In this document: positions 1 through 5,590 of the stretch, one piece after another
Numbering within the stretch: the first letter of the stretch is position 1
Layout: each line of letters opens with the position of its first letter
Assembly (NCBI GenBank): GCA_023248545.1
Contig: JAHFEF010000011.1
Location: 162 to 64,161, forward strand
From: Myxococcales bacterium
GTDB lineage: Bacteria > Myxococcota > UBA727 > JABDBI01
DNA: 64,000 nucleotides
Direction of reading: 5' to 3'
Program-made: the position numbers and the translations under genes
The notes under the pieces: generated by a model
Told to the model about the DNA's origin: nothing
The model's database searches: none
Seen by the model: the letters and a program-made list of their open reading frames with translations, nothing else

Positions 1-2269
1 AGAACTCGCACTGACTTCCAGGGACAAAGACATCCCCATGGCGGGCTTCCCTCACCAAGCTGCCCCGGCCTATATCGCCAAGCTGATCTCACAAGGCTTC
101 AAAGTAGCGATTTGTGATCAACTCGAAGACCCCAAAGCTGCCAAGGGCCTCGTCAAAAGAGACATCACGCGCATTGTCACGCCTGGGACGGTTTTGGACG
201 ACGACAGTTTAAAACCCAGCTCAAATAATTATTTGGTGGCGTTGGTGGCGAGGGGAGAATTCAGCTTATCGGCTCTTGACCTGTCTACCGGTGATTTTTT
301 TGAAACCTCAACTTCGCAATCACAGAGTATCTTAGATGAAATCAGCAAATTGGTCCCGGCGGAGATTTTAATCGGAGGAGATCAGTGGCCCAAAGGTCTA
401 TTGGAAAAGCTCGAACAAGTTGCGAACCAAACCAAGTCTTGCCGATTCGAATTTTTCACAAAATCTTGTAAAGCTTCTGAGTTAATACTGGAGTATATCG
501 CCGAGACACAGGGTGGTGCTCTGGGCTTTTTGTCCGACCCCAAGCCATATTCGATCGATTCTGAGTTGATTATCGACGCTGTTTCCAGAGAGCATTTAGA
601 TCTGCCAGGCCTATTTAGTTTGCTCAATAAAACGTGTACAGCGATGGGGGCGCGCCAATTAAACCGTTGGCTTACAGCACCGTCCACCCATTTGACCGAA
701 ATCGAAAATCGTCAAAATAAAACTCAAGATCTGTTTGACCGGGCCAGTCATCGAAAATCTCTGCGCGATACTTTACGACACTTATACGACTTGGAGCGTT
801 TAACTGTCAAAATTGCAGCGGGTCGAGTAAACCCCCGTGAGCTCGCCAATATTCGAGACTCGCTTCAGCATTTGCCTCGCATTGCCGAGGTTCCAGATCC
901 TCTCACTGATATTCACGATCTGCTCTTCAAAGCCCTGGCCGATCATCCGCCCCTTCTGCTCAAAGAGGGCGGTGTCTTCAAACCGGGTTATGATGCCTAT
1001 TTAGACGAGCTCGTCGATTTCGCCACAGGGGGCCGAGATCAAATTGCGGCCATCGAACAACGTGAACGGGAGCTCACGGGCATTCCCAGCTTGAAAGTCA
1101 AATATACGCGGGTATTTGGTTATTATATTGAGATCACGCACACGCATTTATCAAAAGTTCCGGAGCGTTATAAACGCAAACAGACCGTCGCTTCGGGTGA
1201 GCGCTATGTGACGCAAGAACTCATGCGCCTCGAGGAAATGGTTTCAACAGCCGATATGAGACGCTTGGCCAAAGAGTCAGAACTTTTTGAGCAGTTGCGT
1301 CAGCAATTAAATACCCACTCAGCCCGGCTATTTAAAACTGCCGCTTGTATTGCCGAGCTCGATACCTATGCGGCATTTGCCGAAATTGCCGACGAGCACC
1401 GATATGTTCGGCCAAAGATACTCGACAAAGCGTTGAACCAATTGGAAATCACCGACGGCCGGCACCCCATCTTAGAAGCCCTGAATGAGAAACGCGGCAA
1501 ATCTTTTGTACCCAACTCGATCGTGCTAAACACGCATGATCGTCAGCTGCTGCTCATCACCGGCCCGAACATGGCTGGCAAGAGCACGATCATGCGCCAA
1601 GTGGCCTTGATCCAACTCATGGCTCAGGCTGGCTGTTTTGTGCCGGCACAATCAGCGACGTTAAGCCTCTGCGATCGCATTTTCACCCGCGTGGGTGCAT
1701 CGGACGATAGCCGTCATGGCCGGTCTACTTTCATGGTTGAAATGAGTGAGACAGCCCATATTTTAAACCATGCGACGCCGCACTCGCTGGTGTTACTGGA
1801 CGAAATCGGCCGTGGTACGAGTACTTTTGATGGTTTGGCGATCGCTTGGTCGGTCGCGGAATATTTGCACAATCATATTCGAGCGCGCACGCTCTTTGCG
1901 ACGCATTATCACGAGCTGACCAAACTCACAGAAACTCTTGCACACATGCACAATGTCCAAGTGGCCGTGCAAGAAAACGCCGGCGAGATTAATTTTTTGT
2001 ATACGCTTCTAGAAGGCGCTGCGGGGCGCAGCTATGGCATCCAAGTGGCCAAATTGGCCGGACTCCCCCGAGAAGTTCTAGAGCGTGCCAACGAAGTCTT
2101 AAACTCGCTTGAAAGCGAGAAGCCTACACCTCAAGTCAATCGACCTCCCAAAGAACAACTGGGTCTATTTGCAAATCCGTTCAAAGCGGCGCTCAAAAAC
2201 TTGGACTTGAACCAGACGACTCCCATGCAGGCCTTATCGCTCCTGGCTGATTTAAAGGCGCAGGCCTAG
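1..2269 (+). CDS. mutS: DNA mismatch repair protein MutS (5' partial; the gene begins upstream of the window)
   Basis: The frame is open from nt 2. Translation ...KDIPMAGFPHQA matches the MutS connector motif (E. coli GEPIPMAGIPYHA). Walker A GPNMAGKST and a C-terminal clamp/HTH region are present. ORF ends at 2269. Confidence 0.95.
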   Translation, partial: ELALTSRDKDIPMAGFPHQAAPAYIAKLISQGFKVAICDQLEDPKAAKGLVKRDITRIVTPGTVLDDDSLKPSSNNYLVALVARGEFSLSALDLSTGDFFETSTSQSQSILDEISKLVPAEILIGGDQWPKGLLEKLEQVANQTKSCRFEFFTKSCKASELILEYIAETQGGALGFLSDPKPYSIDSELIIDAVSREHLDLPGLFSLLNKTCTAMGARQLNRWLTAPSTHLTEIENRQNKTQDLFDRASHRKSLRDTLRHLYDLERLTVKIAAGRVNPRELANIRDSLQHLPRIAEVPDPLTDIHDLLFKALADHPPLLLKEGGVFKPGYDAYLDELVDFATGGRDQIAAIEQRERELTGIPSLKVKYTRVFGYYIEITHTHLSKVPERYKRKQTVASGERYVTQELMRLEEMVSTADMRRLAKESELFEQLRQQLNTHSARLFKTAACIAELDTYAAFAEIADEHRYVRPKILDKALNQLEITDGRHPILEALNEKRGKSFVPNSIVLNTHDRQLLLITGPNMAGKSTIMRQVALIQLMAQAGCFVPAQSATLSLCDRIFTRVGASDDSRHGRSTFMVEMSETAHILNHATPHSLVLLDEIGRGTSTFDGLAIAWSVAEYLHNHIRARTLFATHYHELTKLTETLAHMHNVQVAVQENAGEINFLYTLLEGAAGRSYGIQVAKLAGLPREVLERANEVLNSLESEKPTPQVNRPPKEQLGLFANPFKAALKNLDLNQTTPMQALSLLADLKAQA

Positions 2270-2621
2270 CTGGTTTTTCACGGTGTTCTCTGAGAAGTTG
2301 GCTCACCCTTCTGGTAAACTCAGCCCTGTCCCGACTTTCGAGGAAAATCTGTTGGGTCTGTTCCCGAAGTTCGGGCGGAATCTGCTCGAGGGTTGAAATC
2401 GGTTCAGGCTTTTTGACTACAGGCTTGTTTTCAGACCAAATCAATTCGTAAGTCTTATAGCGCTTCTGGATGTAGCCTCTGTGGACCAGCAACCCAGCTT
2501 TCTCAAGCTCTTTGATTAACCGAGCGATGGTCCGTTTGGAGCGTCCCATTTTTTCGGCCATGGTTTCAGGATGCAGCATGAGCAGTGGCCGCTTCGGGCT
2601 CGAGATCATGGACAGCTCCAT
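2193..2621 (-). CDS. helix-turn-helix (winged-helix-like) DNA-binding protein of unknown function; start uncertain, the ORF extends to 2732
   Basis: ORF track 2193..2732. N-proximal motif MAEKMGRSKRTIARLIKELEKAGLL is a classic HTH. The 3' end overlaps mutS convergently by 77 bp. No clear SD at any candidate ATG. Confidence 0.4.
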   Translation of the reverse strand: MELSMISSPKRPLLMLHPETMAEKMGRSKRTIARLIKELEKAGLLVHRGYIQKRYKTYELIWSENKPVVKKPEPISTLEQIPPELREQTQQIFLESRDRAEFTRRVSQLLREHREKPARPAPLNQPGAIRPAWESSGSSPSF

Positions 2622-2867
2622 CCACAGGAGCTTGGCAGACGGAGAAATGGTTGATTTGATGATATGCACAGGAATTTGAACGCAGCGGGCCATGAATGTA
2701 CTCCCATTGACAAACTTGGCCGTCGACACCACTGTGTGCCGCGACCGTTAAACTGGTTGCCGTTTCCATACCTGCTAAAAGTTAGGAAACGGCTTTTTTT
2801 ACAGACACCATGTCTGCAAAGCATCAGCGTAAATCAGGCTGGTTTTGGAAAGATATCGGGTGAATGG

Positions 2868-3341
2868 CTGACCGTAGATCACTTTTTGTGAAGTGATTTC
2901 AAATAGATAAACCTCTTGCTGTTGGTCACCCAGGCAAGATGTTAGGCGAGCTAGGGCTCGCCAAACAAAGCCTGGGCTGTCGCTGTCATATGCCCAAGGG
3001 CATGATTCGTTTGCCACATGGGGCCACTTTCGCCCATGAGACCCTGAATTTTACTCCTGTGCTATGACATTTATTATGCTTCAGGGCGATTTGGCGACGG
3101 GGTGCAATTATTGCTCCTTGCGGAGCGCAAACCCAAAACAATCGGCGGAACTGGCGTCATTGGGCAAACGGATCATGCCCTTGGGCATATGACAGCGACA
3201 GCCCAGGCTTTGTTTGGCGAGCTTCCTCGTCGACCAGACTACGGAGGATAGGGCCAAGCTCGCCTAACATCTTGCCTGGGTGACCAACAGCAAGGGGTTT
3301 ATCTATTTGAAATTGCTTCACAAAAAGTGATGGACGGTCAG
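2868..3341. repeat. ~474-bp palindromic element: imperfect inverted-repeat arms (2868-3015 and 3163-3341) around a 147-bp centre; the right arm carries a ~35-bp insertion
   Basis: Reverse complement of 2868-3015 aligns base-for-base with 3163-3341 apart from a few substitutions and the insertion ttcctcgtcgaccagactacggaggatagggccaa between GCGAGC/GCTCGC. Nested small hairpins are present (GCGAGC-tagg-GCTCGC). Confidence 0.85.
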
Positions 3342-3354
3342 GCTGACGCAGTAT

Positions 3355-3383
3355 TGCTAAAAATTGTTACTTATGTTATATTT
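3355..3383 (+). promoter_or_regulatory. putative sigma70-type promoter for the 3416 gene (TTGCTA-16-TATATT)
   Basis: AT-rich region immediately downstream of the inverted-repeat right arm. Hexamers by eye. SD GAAGGGA precedes ATG 3416. Confidence 0.3.
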
Positions 3384-3415
3384 GCTATGTATGTTATTTC
3401 GAAGGGACTGGTTCT

Positions 3416-3811
3416 ATGGAAATTATTGTGACGGCTTGGGCATTGGATTCGTACCTGGACCTAAAACATCGTGGTACTTTTACCGCAAACGATTACAACC
3501 AGATCATTCGTCCAGATGTGCTAAAGTTAAAACGCTATCCAAATGATCCTAGTTTTTTAAATGGTAAATTTTGGTCACCGGCAACTGATTTAGGCGGGCC
3601 AATACCAGGCGACTTCAAGATGAAGTGGCATAACCTTGGGTATCGCTTAATACAGTTACGTTTGCCTATCGGAATGTTTTCGAACGCAGTGCTGTGCCAC
3701 GCCTATGTTAAGACGGATTCCAAATTTGAACAACGCCAGCTTGCAAAATTCAAGACCCGTTTGGAATTGATAAGACGGGGACAATACACAGAATGCGGGA
3801 GGTTAATATGA
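3416..3811 (+). CDS. hypothetical protein, candidate toxin component (131 aa) of a two-gene toxin/HTH-antitoxin-like module
   Basis: Intact ORF with SD. Stop TGA overlaps the ATG of the downstream HTH gene (ATGA coupling). No family recognised by eye. Confidence 0.5.
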   Translation: MEIIVTAWALDSYLDLKHRGTFTANDYNQIIRPDVLKLKRYPNDPSFLNGKFWSPATDLGGPIPGDFKMKWHNLGYRLIQLRLPIGMFSNAVLCHAYVKTDSKFEQRQLAKFKTRLELIRRGQYTECGRLI

Positions 3812-4299
3812 AAGCACTGCCTTTGGAACCTGATTTAGGAGTAGAGATTGTTGAAATTGGCCACGCGATGAACCTAGCTGGGTTGCCTAAAGAGTTTGTT
3901 GCTTCAGCAGTTCATATGGCTTTTGAATTCGAAGGTGTCTACGACTTGATCAAATTGTGGGCTGAAGAACAAGATCCCATTGAACGTGAAGAACTTGTCA
4001 TAGACATCCAGGAAATGATTGATGACTATTCGGAAAATAATCTATCTACACCTATCTATGTGCGTTTCGATGACCTGGATACCATTGCAAAAAATATCCG
4101 GGCCTTCAAAGATCAACTTCGCATCATCGTGGATCAGAAGGGTGGCATCAAGCATCTATCCGAACTTAGTGGCGTGCCCCAGCCATCGCTGTCCAGATTG
4201 TTTAACTCAAGCACCATGCCCAGGCGCAACACGTTGAACAAGATACGACATGCCTTGAAACTAAACCAGGTGCAACTAAGTACTCAATGGTCGCACTGA
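3808..4299 (+). CDS. XRE-family HTH protein (C-terminal HTH), candidate antitoxin/regulator (HigA-like architecture)
   Basis: Strong SD GGGAGG 5-11 nt upstream of ATG 3808. C-terminal GIKHLSELSGVPQPSLSRLFN...NTLNKIRHAL is a typical XRE HTH. Translationally coupled to 3416..3811. Confidence 0.55.
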   Translation: MKALPLEPDLGVEIVEIGHAMNLAGLPKEFVASAVHMAFEFEGVYDLIKLWAEEQDPIEREELVIDIQEMIDDYSENNLSTPIYVRFDDLDTIAKNIRAFKDQLRIIVDQKGGIKHLSELSGVPQPSLSRLFNSSTMPRRNTLNKIRHALKLNQVQLSTQWSH

Positions 4300-4357
4300 C
4301 AAAATGATAGGCGCCTTGACTTGAAGGCGCAGGCCTAATGTGCTTTTATCGACGCCT

Positions 4358-5254
4358 ATGAGCATTTTAGTTGTCGGTTCGATTGCGTTTGATTCTGTGA
4401 AAACCCCTTTTGGCGCGTGTGAACGAGCTCTGGGCGGCGCGGCCAATTTTTTCGCCATGACGGCCAGTCTGTTTACGAAAGTTCAGTTGGTTGGCGTGGT
4501 CGGCGAAGATTTCCCCCAAGAGCATCTCAAGTATCTAGAATCTCGGGGTGTTGATACGATGGGTGTCCAGCAGACTTCTGGTAAAACTTTCCATTGGCAA
4601 GGCTATTATGGCTATGACTTGAACGAAGCGCAGACGCTGAAGACTGAACTGAATGTTTTCGGGAGCTTTAATCCCCGATTGCCGGAGCCCTACAAGCAGG
4701 CTCAGACAGTGTTCTTAGCCAATATTGATCCTGTTTTGCAACTGCAAGTTTTGGAGCAAGTCACCAAGCCCCAATTGGTTGCATTGGATACGATGAACTT
4801 CTGGATCGAGAGCAAAAATGCTGAGCTAAAACGCGTGATTGCCGAAGTGGACATCCTGTTTATCAACGAGTCAGAGCTCCGGCAGTTGGCAGATGAGCGC
4901 AATACGGTCAAGGCAGCCAAAAAAATGCAGACGCTGGGAGCCAAGACAATTATTGTGAAACGAGGCGAATATGGGGCCCTGATGTTTCATGAACAAGGCA
5001 CTTTTTTTGCGCCGGCGTTTCCTCTGGAGGATATCTTTGATCCCACGGGAGCTGGGGATACGTTTGCGGCCGGTTTCATGGCACACATCGATCAAGCCGG
5101 CAGATTTGATTTTGCGACGTTCAAAGAAGCCATGGTCATGGGGAGTGTCATGGCCAGTTTTGTGATTGAAGATTTTTCTTTCGATCGTATCAAACGCCTT
5201 GAAAAATCTGAGATCGATCGTCGTCGAAAAGAATTTAAACAGCTGACCCTCTAG
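4358..5254 (+). CDS. PfkB-family carbohydrate/nucleoside kinase (ribokinase superfamily)
   Basis: PfkB signature-2 DPTGAGDTFAAGF plus the N-terminal GG dipeptide region. About 299 aa from ATG 4358. Confidence 0.85.
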   Translation: MSILVVGSIAFDSVKTPFGACERALGGAANFFAMTASLFTKVQLVGVVGEDFPQEHLKYLESRGVDTMGVQQTSGKTFHWQGYYGYDLNEAQTLKTELNVFGSFNPRLPEPYKQAQTVFLANIDPVLQLQVLEQVTKPQLVALDTMNFWIESKNAELKRVIAEVDILFINESELRQLADERNTVKAAKKMQTLGAKTIIVKRGEYGALMFHEQGTFFAPAFPLEDIFDPTGAGDTFAAGFMAHIDQAGRFDFATFKEAMVMGSVMASFVIEDFSFDRIKRLEKSEIDRRRKEFKQLTL

Positions 5255-5299
5255 ACACTGTTTCTCGTCTGGATATATTCCCCGAAAAGGAGTCACGAT

Positions 5300-5590
5300 A
5301 TGAAAAGAAGTCTAATTTTGTTTTCTGTGTTGTTCTCACTCGGCGCTTTAGCGGATGCAGAAATTCCAGATCGGTTAAGCAACAGCATTTTGCAAACGGT
5401 TAAGCATTACAAAGAAAGTCAAGAAAAAGCAAAGAAAGCTGAGGCTAATCTACTCGCCCTCCAAGAGGCATGTAAATTTGTGGTGGAACACATGGCGCCG
5501 AAGGCCGATGCGCCGGAAATGCTTGCACATCATGTCATGCTATCGGAGGATCCAGCGCCGGCTGCCGAGTTGCCAAAGACTGATTTGTAG
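5300..5590 (+). CDS. small secreted protein, unknown function
   Basis: Signal peptide MKRSLILFSVLFSLGALADA. Helical, charged mature part. Confidence 0.45.
   Translation: MKRSLILFSVLFSLGALADAEIPDRLSNSILQTVKHYKESQEKAKKAEANLLALQEACKFVVEHMAPKADAPEMLAHHVMLSEDPAPAAELPKTDL

What the first reader, a model, noticed from the sequence alone, without database searches (positions are those of the whole stretch)
2868..3341. 474-bp element with ~150-bp inverted-repeat arms and nested hairpins in a non-coding gap
Seen in sequence: the reverse complement of 2868-3015 matches 3163-3341 almost perfectly. The right arm has an extra 35 bp that is itself a hairpin (CCTCG...CGGAGG) inserted inside a GCGAGC/GCTCGC hairpin. 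The element sits in a 680-bp gap between an HTH gene and a toxin/antitoxin-like pair. Possibilities: a MITE-like mobile element (no transposase, no clear target-site duplication), a long structured antisense or hairpin RNA, or a recombination site of an integrated element whose other genes are the flanking HTH and TA-like genes. The small ORFs predicted across it (2664-2891, 2799-3017) are probably artefacts.
Basis: seen in the sequence. Interest (0 to 1): 0.65.

Follow-up and report, generated by a model that had tools for sequence, protein, structure and literature searches.

The report
Long inverted repeat inside mini-island
A real 474-bp inverted repeat lies in the middle of a 2.07-kb piece of foreign DNA inserted into the end of the mutS gene. 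It looks like a non-coding foldback repeat left by mobile DNA, not a gene, and no function could be shown for it.

Summary
Arms 2868-3037 and 3141-3341 are 90-93% complementary around a 103-nt spacer. The right arm carries a 31-nt insertion (3223-3253) at the tip of an arm-internal hairpin. It is the only long inverted repeat in the 64-kb window, and two independent assemblies contain it whole.

The context is new. A 21-nt direct repeat, consisting of the last codons plus stop of mutS (2248-2268 and 4317-4337, 19/21, both differences synonymous), brackets a 2,069-bp island with no integrase. The island holds three parts:
- an HTH_36 gene with a conserved structured leader;
- the hairpin;
- a HigBA-like toxin-antitoxin pair.

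Homologues of both gene cassettes occur elsewhere without the hairpin. Their homology stops at its two ends.

The outer 42 nt of the arm has a third, solo copy at 52586-52627 with the same sharp outer edge. It also ends 12-13 nt upstream of the promoter of a toxin-antitoxin operon.

There is no match in Rfam or in genome, metagenome, viral, plasmid or phage collections. There is no target-site duplication and no coding capacity.

Best reading (confidence about 0.4): a foldback, MITE-like repeat relic. Main rival: a gene-upstream repeat module. Copy number in the host genome could not be tested. Interest is low to moderate.

The parts
2868..3037 (.). Left arm of the inverted repeat
   Evidence: 90-93% complementary to 3141-3341; sharp outer end at 2868 (CTGACCGT...)
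3038..3140 (.). Unique 103-nt spacer (loop); contains one weak promoter-like site at 3050-3077 on the + strand
   Evidence: 103 nt between the arms; 9/12 promoter match, number of sites not above shuffles; spacer fold z = -0.84
3141..3341 (.). Right arm of the inverted repeat
   Evidence: outer end ...ACGGTCAG at 3341
3223..3253 (.). 31-nt insertion present only in the right arm, at the tip of the GGCGAGC/GCTCGCC hairpin; itself a weak hairpin
   Evidence: alignments; fold
2929..2976 (.). Arm-internal palindrome CCCAGGC..GGCGAGC-TAGG-GCTCGCC..GCCTGGG (mirror copy at 3202-3280)
   Evidence: sequence; single-arm folds (z = -3.5)
52586..52627 (+). Solo third copy of the outer 42 nt of the arm (36/42 identical to the right arm; outer 23 nt identical), ending 13 nt before the -35 of a Phd/YefM-PIN operon
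   Evidence: (nhmmer E = 1.9e-11)
2248..2268 (+). Left copy of the 21-nt direct repeat: the present 3' end of mutS (attL-like)
   Evidence: 0 of 300 shuffles reach 19/21
4317..4337 (+). Right copy of the direct repeat: a displaced mutS 3' end (encodes DLKAQA*), just before pfkB (attR-like)
   Evidence: homology to a relative starts at 4339; contig L004 starts at 4318
2193..2693 (-). HTH_36 winged-helix gene; its last ~25 codons are read from the antisense of mutS, across the island junction
   Evidence: start as called in L001
2696..2867 (.). Conserved structured region upstream of the HTH_36 gene. On the + strand: TTGACA at 2708-2713, and a stem-loop plus T7 at 2761-2800. Candidate small antisense RNA
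   Evidence: 4 homologues, 6 pairs with compensatory changes; homology ends at the hairpin boundary
3354..3397 (+). Promoter/operator of the toxin-antitoxin pair, starting 12 nt after the right arm
   Evidence: TTGCTA-17-TATATT with TG; conserved in homologous cassettes L087 and L088; direct repeat D4
3416..3811 (+). 131-aa toxin candidate with a HigB/RelE-like predicted fold
   Evidence: pLDDT 89; best matches are HigB toxins, TM 0.54-0.58
3808..4299 (+). 163-aa antitoxin candidate with a C-terminal Xre-type HTH
   Evidence: conserved as a pair with the 131-aa gene

Best explanation
The 474-bp element is selfish, non-coding repeat DNA. It consists of two inverted copies of a lineage-specific unit of about 175 bp around a 103-bp spacer, that is, a foldback or long-TIR MITE-like element. 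It is probably now an immobile relic.

It lies between two self-contained small cassettes, an HTH_36 gene with a structured leader and a HigBA-like toxin-antitoxin pair. All three sit inside a 2.07-kb integrase-less island that integrated into the last 21 nt of mutS.

Proposed mechanism (inferred): a transposase or recombinase encoded elsewhere recognises the terminal 23-42 nt (CTGACCGTnnATCACTTTTTGTG...). The rest of each arm is passenger sequence.

The hairpin potential is a consequence of the inverted duplication, not a selected RNA structure. Likely side effects are cruciform or hairpin formation, and separation of the two divergent promoter regions.

Shown: the repeat, its sharp ends, the third terminal copy, its absence from homologous cassettes, and the island boundaries. 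Inferred: mobility and the trans-acting enzyme.
For: - The inverted repeat is real, unique in the window and reproduced in independent assemblies.
- All three copies of the terminus end at the same base (...ACGGTCAG), after which the sequences diverge. Conservation is graded as at a transposon end: the outer 23 nt are identical between the right arm and the solo copy, the next 19 nt are about 68% identical, and nothing is similar beyond that.
- The element fills exactly the space between two modules. Homology of HTH_36 loci L090, L091 and L094 to the window stops between 2837 and 2872. Homology of the toxin-antitoxin cassettes L085-L088 starts at 3354-3364. None of those loci has a long inverted repeat.
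- It has no coding capacity, no Rfam family and no protein homologues of the arm ORF.
- The arms have drifted (14 substitutions plus a 31-nt indel), as expected for an unselected relic.
- It lies in demonstrably horizontally acquired DNA (direct repeat 19/21; a relative is collinear only from 4339 onward).
- Its size, terminal repeats, lack of a transposase and ability to fold into a long stem-loop match the published description of bacterial MITEs (PMC3184786).
Against: - There is no target-site duplication. The flanks are GGTGAATGG and GCTGACGCA. The only direct repeat is a 6-nt GCTGAC that overlaps the left terminus (sequence).
- Only one full element and one 42-nt fragment occur in 64 kb. 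There are none in about 18 kb of contigs that probably belong to the same genome (L091, L094).
- There are no real matches in GTDB genomes, JGI metagenomes, IMG/VR, plasmids or phages.
- No transposase or recombinase is recognisable among the window's ORFs. This rests on visual inspection of the first 110 residues of each ORF.
- Arms of about 175 bp are far longer than typical bacterial MITE terminal repeats.
- The right arm and the solo copy both end 12-13 nt upstream of the -35 of a toxin-antitoxin promoter. That fits a promoter-upstream module at least as well.
Confidence: 0.4

Rival explanations
1. Gene-upstream repeat module. The unit is a single arm placed just upstream of small selfish cassettes, and its conserved outer 42 nt is a protein-binding site for a regulator or a cassette-capture recombinase. 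Two units lie head to head because the HTH and toxin-antitoxin cassettes diverge, so the hairpin is incidental.
For: In all three copies the outer end points towards a downstream gene or genes that read away from it. The right arm ends 12 nt before the -35 of the HigBA-like promoter (TTGCTA-17-TATATT). The solo copy ends 13 nt before the -35 of the Phd/PIN promoter (TTGACA-17-CATACT). Both promoters have an extended -10 TG. The conserved part holds a palindrome, TCAC-N5-GTGA, centred about 65 nt upstream of both predicted transcription starts (sequence). There is weak similarity beyond the terminus. Precedents exist in Neisseria REP2 and Borrelia IR-A/IR-B (PMC3184786).
Against: The left arm has no promoter-like site at the corresponding distance. 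It lies about 175 nt from the HTH start, beyond that gene's own conserved leader, and three HTH homologues lack any arm. Similarity drops abruptly after ...GGTCAG, so the promoters are not part of the repeat. Homologous toxin-antitoxin cassettes elsewhere have the promoter but not the arm. There are only three copies.
Confidence: 0.22
2. A functional long hairpin RNA or antisense RNA, transcribed on the + strand and processed by RNase III, that regulates the flanking HTH or toxin-antitoxin genes.
For: The fold is extremely stable. All 6 transition differences between the arms give G.U pairs in the + strand RNA and A.C in the - strand RNA, and the + strand fold is 23 kcal/mol more stable.
Against: The stability follows from the repeat alone. 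The 6/6 G.U bias (two-sided p about 0.03, tested post hoc) is also what leading-strand C-to-T mutation bias would produce, and GC skew is positive across this region. Eight transversions break pairs without compensation. No + strand promoter-like site lies upstream of 2868. A conserved stem-loop plus T7 lies at 2761-2800, just upstream on the + strand. There is no Rfam match and no homologue for covariation.
Confidence: 0.1
3. A cis-acting DNA site of the island, such as a single-strand origin, transfer origin or recombination hairpin. It would work with the replication-initiator-like HTH_36 protein, and the toxin-antitoxin pair would act as an addiction module of a former mini-plasmid.
For: The HTH_36 protein matches the N-terminal winged helix of phage replication initiators (PHROG 270, E = 1.6e-8). 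Its leader looks like a counter-transcript control region. The layout of rep-like gene, large palindrome and toxin-antitoxin pair is plasmid-like. The arm-internal palindromes would give a branched cruciform.
Against: The protein is only about 150 aa, a single winged helix with no HUH or helicase-loader domain. Its three homologues lie in ordinary chromosomal contexts without any long repeat. The hairpin is not at an island junction. No plasmid or phage carries similar DNA.
Confidence: 0.1
4. An invertible switch. Homologous recombination between the arms flips the 103-bp spacer and its promoter-like site towards either the toxin-antitoxin pair or the HTH gene.
For: A promoter-like site (TTTACT-16-TATTAT) lies in the spacer and faces the toxin-antitoxin pair. 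Repeats of 170 bp are ample substrate for RecA.
Against: The promoter match is weak (9/12), and the number of such sites is not above shuffles. All assemblies that cover the spacer (the window, L001, L002) show the same orientation. The arms are not homogenised (14 substitutions plus an indel).
Confidence: 0.05
5. An assembly artefact (a fold-back chimera).
For: Metagenome contigs L002 and L003 begin inside the element.
Against: The arms are imperfect (93%, with an indel). The element is internal to a long contig, and independent contig L001 spans it completely at 100% identity.
Confidence: 0.02

Closest known systems
Bacterial MITEs (e.g. Correia, ERIC, Chunjie; review PMC3184786)
   Same: Small, intergenic and non-coding, with terminal inverted repeats and no transposase. 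They fold into a long, stable stem-loop and can sit next to promoters.
   Different: There is no target-site duplication. Multi-copy status is unproven. The arms are about 175-205 bp and make up almost the whole element, whereas typical MITE repeats are about 10-40 bp. At 474 bp it is at or above the upper size limit quoted for MITEs. No parent insertion sequence is known.
Eukaryotic foldback elements and hairpin-forming MITEs (from my own knowledge)
   Same: The architecture matches: two long inverted arms around a short unique middle, with internal sub-repeats in the arms.
   Different: Those are eukaryotic, with a different transposition machinery. This is a structural analogy only.
Neisseria REP2 and Borrelia IR-A/IR-B gene-upstream repeats (PMC3184786)
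   Same: They are repeats of about 150-180 bp with internal stem-loops, placed immediately upstream of genes and oriented towards them.
   Different: Those repeats contain the promoter, ribosome-binding site and ATG. Here the promoters lie just outside the conserved part, and only two of the three copies sit next to a recognisable promoter.
CIME-type islands: att-flanked elements without integrase, mobilisable in cis (from my own knowledge)
   Same: This applies to the 2.07-kb island around the hairpin. It has direct repeats that duplicate the 3' end of the target gene, no recombinase inside, and accessory or addiction genes.
   Different: This island is much smaller. No cognate integrative element is known, and excision has not been shown.
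Folded single-strand DNA sites (integron attC, CTXphi attP, rolling-circle plasmid sso; from my own knowledge)
   Same: They are imperfect palindromes that act as hairpins in single-stranded DNA of mobile elements.
   Different: attC is 57-141 nt with RYYYAAC at the 5' end and GTTRRRY at the 3' end. Here the matching heptamers are in the opposite order, and no integron integrase was recognised. No HUH Rep is present, which an sso would need. The hairpin is internal to the island, whereas a used attP would be split between the island's ends.

Membership tests
Bacterial MITE | Terminal inverted repeats with defined ends | tested here: met
   arms 2868-3037 / 3141-3341, 90-93% complementary, sharp ends
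Bacterial MITE | Small and without a transposase or other real coding capacity | tested here: met
   474 bp; ORFs across it have no Pfam match and no real homologues among 1.84 billion representative proteins
Bacterial MITE | Flanking target-site duplication | tested here: not met
   Flanks are GGTGAATGG | element | GCTGACGCA, 4/9 identical. The only direct repeat is a 6-nt GCTGAC that overlaps the left terminus.
Bacterial MITE | Multiple dispersed copies in the genome | tested here: inconclusive
   One full element and one 42-nt terminal fragment in 64 kb. None in L091-L095, which are probably from the same genome. The rest of the host genome was not available. No real matches in public collections.
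Bacterial MITE | A parent insertion sequence with matching terminal repeats | not testable with these tools
   No transposase is recognisable in the window (visual inspection only). There is no ISfinder-type library and no access to the rest of the genome.
Integron attC site | 57-141 nt, with RYYYAAC at the 5' end and GTTRRRY at the 3' end of the folding strand | tested here: not met
   Sequence: GTTAGGC (2941-2947) precedes GCCTAAC (3262-3268), the reverse order. The element is 474 nt.
Integron attC site | Integron integrase and attI nearby | tested here: not met
   No recombinase-like ORF was seen in the 64-kb window (visual inspection of N-termini; not a profile search).
Any curated RNA family (Rfam 15) | Covariance-model match | tested here: not met
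   only a chance-level mir-72 hit (19.3 bits against a gathering score of 60, E = 0.52)
Site-specifically integrated island without integrase (CIME-like): the surrounding 2.07 kb | Flanking direct repeats, one being the 3' end of the target gene | tested here: met
   2248-2268 and 4317-4337, 19/21 identical. Both mismatches are synonymous in the mutS frame. 0 of 300 shuffles reach 19/21.
Site-specifically integrated island without integrase (CIME-like): the surrounding 2.07 kb | An empty site in relatives | tested here: inconclusive
   The nearest retrievable relative (PfkB 86% identical, L096) is collinear from 4339 rightwards but has different genes, not mutS, on the left. Contig L004 starts at 4318, which is only a hint.
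Rolling-circle plasmid single-strand origin (sso) | An associated HUH-type Rep protein | tested here: not met
   The neighbouring protein has only an HTH_36 winged helix. No His-hydrophobic-His motif is visible in the alignment.
HigBA-type type II toxin-antitoxin module (the neighbouring gene pair) | An upstream toxin with a RelE/HigB fold and a downstream antitoxin with an Xre-type HTH, conserved as a pair | tested here: met
   The AF2 model (pLDDT 89) best matches HigB toxins 6af4, 5jaa and 7nbu (prob up to 0.99, TM 0.5-0.58, but E about 0.02). HTH_3 lies in the C-terminus of the second protein. The pair is conserved in unrelated contexts. Toxicity was not tested.
REP2 / IR-A type gene-upstream repeats | The repeat contains the promoter, ribosome-binding site and start codon of the downstream gene | tested here: not met
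   The promoter-like sites start 12-13 nt outside the conserved repeat.

The most novel reading that the evidence does not exclude
The ~175-bp arm, through its invariant 23-nt terminus CACAAAAAGTGATGGACGGTCAG, could be a lineage-specific boundary or capture site. An unknown recombinase would use it to insert small selfish cassettes (two unrelated toxin-antitoxin operons and an HTH-plus-sRNA unit) at a fixed distance from it. That would be a cassette system analogous to, but unrelated to, integron attC sites. The 474-bp hairpin would then be two such sites back to back.
Probability: 0.1. Interest if true: 0.65.

Novelty: new variant of a known kind. Interest (0 to 1): 0.3.

Why it matters
If it is a foldback repeat relic, the main value is practical. 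It explains why short-read assemblies break here, and it marks a tiny integrase-less island at the 3' end of mutS in a poorly sampled Myxococcota-like lineage. It would matter more if the conserved terminus proves to be a recognition site that places toxin-antitoxin cassettes at a fixed distance. That would point to an undescribed cassette-insertion or regulatory system. The side findings may be more useful than the hairpin itself: a conserved structured leader or candidate small RNA upstream of the HTH_36 genes, and a widespread HigB-like family that has no Pfam model.

Tried and rejected
**Searches that found nothing useful**
- Rfam search at permissive E-value: nothing.
- Exact-pattern scan of GTDB genomes with the 23-nt terminus: no hits.
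- MutS-based locus search: only relatives at 57% identity or less, because the conserved peptide patterns saturated the search. None has pfkB or island genes nearby.
- JGI metagenome scan: one hit (L089), a chance match inside a coding region with no repeat around it.
- IMG/VR scans with the outer and inner arm patterns: nothing.
- blastn against plasmids and phages: nothing.
- Search of 1.84 billion representative proteins with the arm ORF, hoping for spurious ORFs called in other copies: two tandem-repeat junk proteins only.
- nhmmer profiles of the 42-mer and of the whole arm against the window and all 98 loci: no new copies.

**Ideas considered and rejected**
- Integron attC: rejected because the core heptamers are in reverse order, the size is wrong and no integrase was seen.
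- G.U bias as evidence for a + strand RNA: downgraded, because positive GC skew predicts the same bias.
- Invertible switch: the spacer has the same orientation in all assemblies, and the promoter match is at chance level.
- A second att-like repeat around the Phd/PIN locus (16 nt, family D4): rejected as A-rich and not significant.
- Compensatory change within the arm-internal hairpins, comparing the two arms: uninformative. The only stem with substitutions (2878-2897) is broken in the right arm.

Full report
**1. The observation**

The inverted repeat is real. The repeat finder gives two collinear blocks: 2868-2955 / 3254-3341 (88 nt, 93%) and 2956-3037 / 3141-3222 (82 nt, 90%), with 103 nt between the inner ends. 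The two blocks are separated only by a 31-nt insertion in the right arm (3223-3253). It lies at the tip of the arm-internal GGCGAGC/GCTCGCC hairpin.

The arms differ by 14 substitutions over about 170 positions. Both strands fold into one long hairpin (z = -28.6 and -31.4). That is a direct consequence of the repeat.

Nothing comparable exists elsewhere in the 64-kb window. Independent metagenome contigs reproduce it at 100% identity. L001 spans the whole element, and L002 and L003 start inside it. It is therefore not a fold-back assembly artefact.

The ORFs across it have no family and no real homologues.

**2. The surroundings: a 2.07-kb island**

A 21-nt direct repeat brackets the region. 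The left copy, TGATTTAAAGGCGCAGGCCTA (2248-2268), is the last codons and stop of mutS. The right copy, TGACTTGAAGGCGCAGGCCTA (4317-4337), lies just before pfkB.
- The two mismatches are synonymous in the mutS frame; both copies encode DLKAQA*.
- None of 300 shuffles of the region reaches 19/21.
- A relative with 86% identical PfkB (GCA_037134495.1, L096) is collinear with the window for more than 7 kb, starting at 4339, the second base after the right repeat. To the left it has unrelated genes.
- The HTH gene's last ~25 codons are read from the antisense strand of mutS. Its closest homologue ends about where the junction lies.

I conclude that roughly 2269-4338 is one insertion into the 3' end of mutS. 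It carries no integrase or transposase.

**3. The island's modules**

(a) *The HTH_36 gene.* A winged-helix gene (2193-2693, minus strand) resembles the N-terminus of phage replication initiators.
- It has only three homologues among 5.8 billion proteins.
- Two of them come from the same samples, on contigs whose tetranucleotide profile correlates at 0.91-0.93 with the window, so they are probably paralogues in the same genome.
- All four share about 175 nt of conserved upstream sequence, with compensatory changes in several stems.
- On the opposite strand they share a conserved TTGACA box and a stem-loop followed by a T-run. This is a candidate ~60-nt antisense RNA.

(b) *The 131-aa / 163-aa pair.*
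- The 131-aa protein has 248 homologues and no Pfam model.
- Its AF2 model (pLDDT 89) best matches HigB/RelE-type toxins.
- The second protein has a C-terminal Xre-type HTH.
- The pair recurs in unrelated contexts with the same promoter/operator.

(c) *The hairpin* lies between them.

**4. The hairpin belongs to neither cassette**

Homology of the HTH loci to the window ends between 2837 and 2872. Homology of the toxin-antitoxin loci begins at 3354-3364. None of those loci has a long inverted repeat. The element therefore fills exactly the gap between two independently bounded modules.

**5. A third copy of the terminus**

The outer 42 nt of the arm recurs at 52586-52627 (36/42 identical to the right arm; the outer 23 nt identical; nhmmer E = 1.9e-11). 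All three copies end at ...ACGGTCAG, and the sequences diverge after that.

The solo copy lies 13 nt upstream of the -35 of an unrelated toxin-antitoxin operon (Phd/YefM plus PIN). The right arm ends 12 nt upstream of the -35 of the HigBA-like operon.

No other copy exists in the window or in any of the 98 loci fetched.

**6. Searches elsewhere**

There is no Rfam family. The terminus has no match in GTDB species representatives. JGI metagenomes gave one chance hit inside a gene. IMG/VR, plasmids and phages gave nothing.

The host lineage is poorly sampled. PfkB has no relative above 88% identity, and NCBI labels the nearest ones Myxococcota or Myxococcaceae MAGs. I could not reach the rest of the host genome, so copy number, the key test, remains open.

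**7. Interpretation**

The best-supported reading is a foldback, MITE-like repeat relic, with confidence of about 0.4.

In favour:
- long terminal inverted repeats with sharp ends;
- graded conservation that is strongest in the terminal 23 nt;
- no coding capacity;
- drifted arms;
- a position inside horizontally acquired DNA, between two cassettes that do not need it.

This matches the published description of MITEs in every feature except two (PMC3184786). There is no target-site duplication, and dispersal is unproven. I therefore do not file it as a MITE; I only say that it is built like one.

The main rival, at about 0.22, is a gene-upstream repeat module. It rests on the equal spacing to two toxin-antitoxin promoters and on a TCAC-N5-GTGA palindrome about 65 nt upstream of both predicted transcription starts. 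This would resemble Neisseria REP2 or Borrelia IR-A. Against it, the left arm lacks such a promoter, and the promoters lie outside the repeat.

A functional hairpin RNA is weakly suggested. All six transition mismatches give G.U pairs on the + strand. Positive GC skew predicts the same bias, the transversions are not compensated, and no upstream promoter-like site was found.

Three further readings have little support:
- An origin or single-strand-origin-like site working with the HTH_36 protein. Its homologues lack any such repeat.
- An invertible switch. The spacer has the same orientation in all assemblies, and the promoter-like site is at chance level.
- An assembly artefact. An independent contig spans the whole element.

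**8. Novelty and verdict**

The hairpin is a lineage-specific oddity of a known general kind. Its arms are unusually long for a bacterium, and no function is demonstrated. Interest is low to moderate (0.3).

The most novel reading not excluded is that the conserved terminus marks a fixed-distance insertion or recognition site for small selfish cassettes (probability about 0.1). Reading the complete host genome and the raw reads would settle most of this.

Noticed in passing
window 2248-2268 and 4317-4337: A 21-nt direct repeat (19/21, differences synonymous) duplicates the 3' end of mutS. It brackets a 2,069-bp integrase-less island made of the HTH_36 gene, the hairpin and a HigBA-like pair. 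A relative is collinear only from 4339 onward.
   Followed up: yes
window 2696-2867; L090 180-352; L091 9575-9729; L094 3572-3740: About 175 nt upstream of four HTH_36 homologues is conserved, with compensatory base changes in several stems. The opposite strand has a conserved TTGACA-17 nt promoter-like box and a stem-loop plus T-run. This is a candidate ~60-nt antisense or counter-transcript RNA that is not in Rfam.
   Followed up: partly
window 2193-2269 (minus strand): The HTH_36 ORF runs across the island junction. Its last ~25 codons are the antisense of the mutS 3' end and are not conserved in homologues, so the gene appears truncated or extended by the insertion.
   Followed up: partly
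window 3416-4299; L085-L088: The 131-aa protein belongs to a widespread family (248 hits at 57-84% identity) with no Pfam, PHROG or PADLOC model. Its AF2 model has a HigB/RelE-like fold. It is always paired with a 163-aa protein carrying a C-terminal Xre-type HTH, often on mobile-looking DNA near resolvase, Tn5-like transposase, AbiE or PIN genes.
   Followed up: partly
window 49342-50868 vs 50982-52523; 52117-52542: A eukaryote-like leucine-rich-repeat gene is tandemly duplicated (89% identity over 1.5 kb). It contains 81-nt (27-aa) internal repeats.
   Followed up: no
window 52690-53350: A Phd/YefM-PIN toxin-antitoxin operon lies here. The stop codon of the PIN gene overlaps the start codon (ATGA) of the tlyA-like S4/FtsJ methyltransferase gene (53347-54093).
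   Followed up: no
L096 5576-7051: The closest retrievable relative (GCA_037134495.1) encodes a TLC-family ATP/ADP translocase near the syntenic block. This hints at an energy-parasitic or host-associated lifestyle for the lineage.
   Followed up: no
window 4340-4358: The pfkB start is probably the ATG at 4358, not the GTG at 4340. All close homologues are 297-298 aa and align from residue 7.
   Followed up: no
L004 (= window 4318-5421); L002 and L003 starts at 3010 and 3265: Short-read metagenome contigs break inside the hairpin and exactly at the start of the right att-like repeat. This may reflect strain heterogeneity (an empty site) in the sampled population.
   Followed up: no
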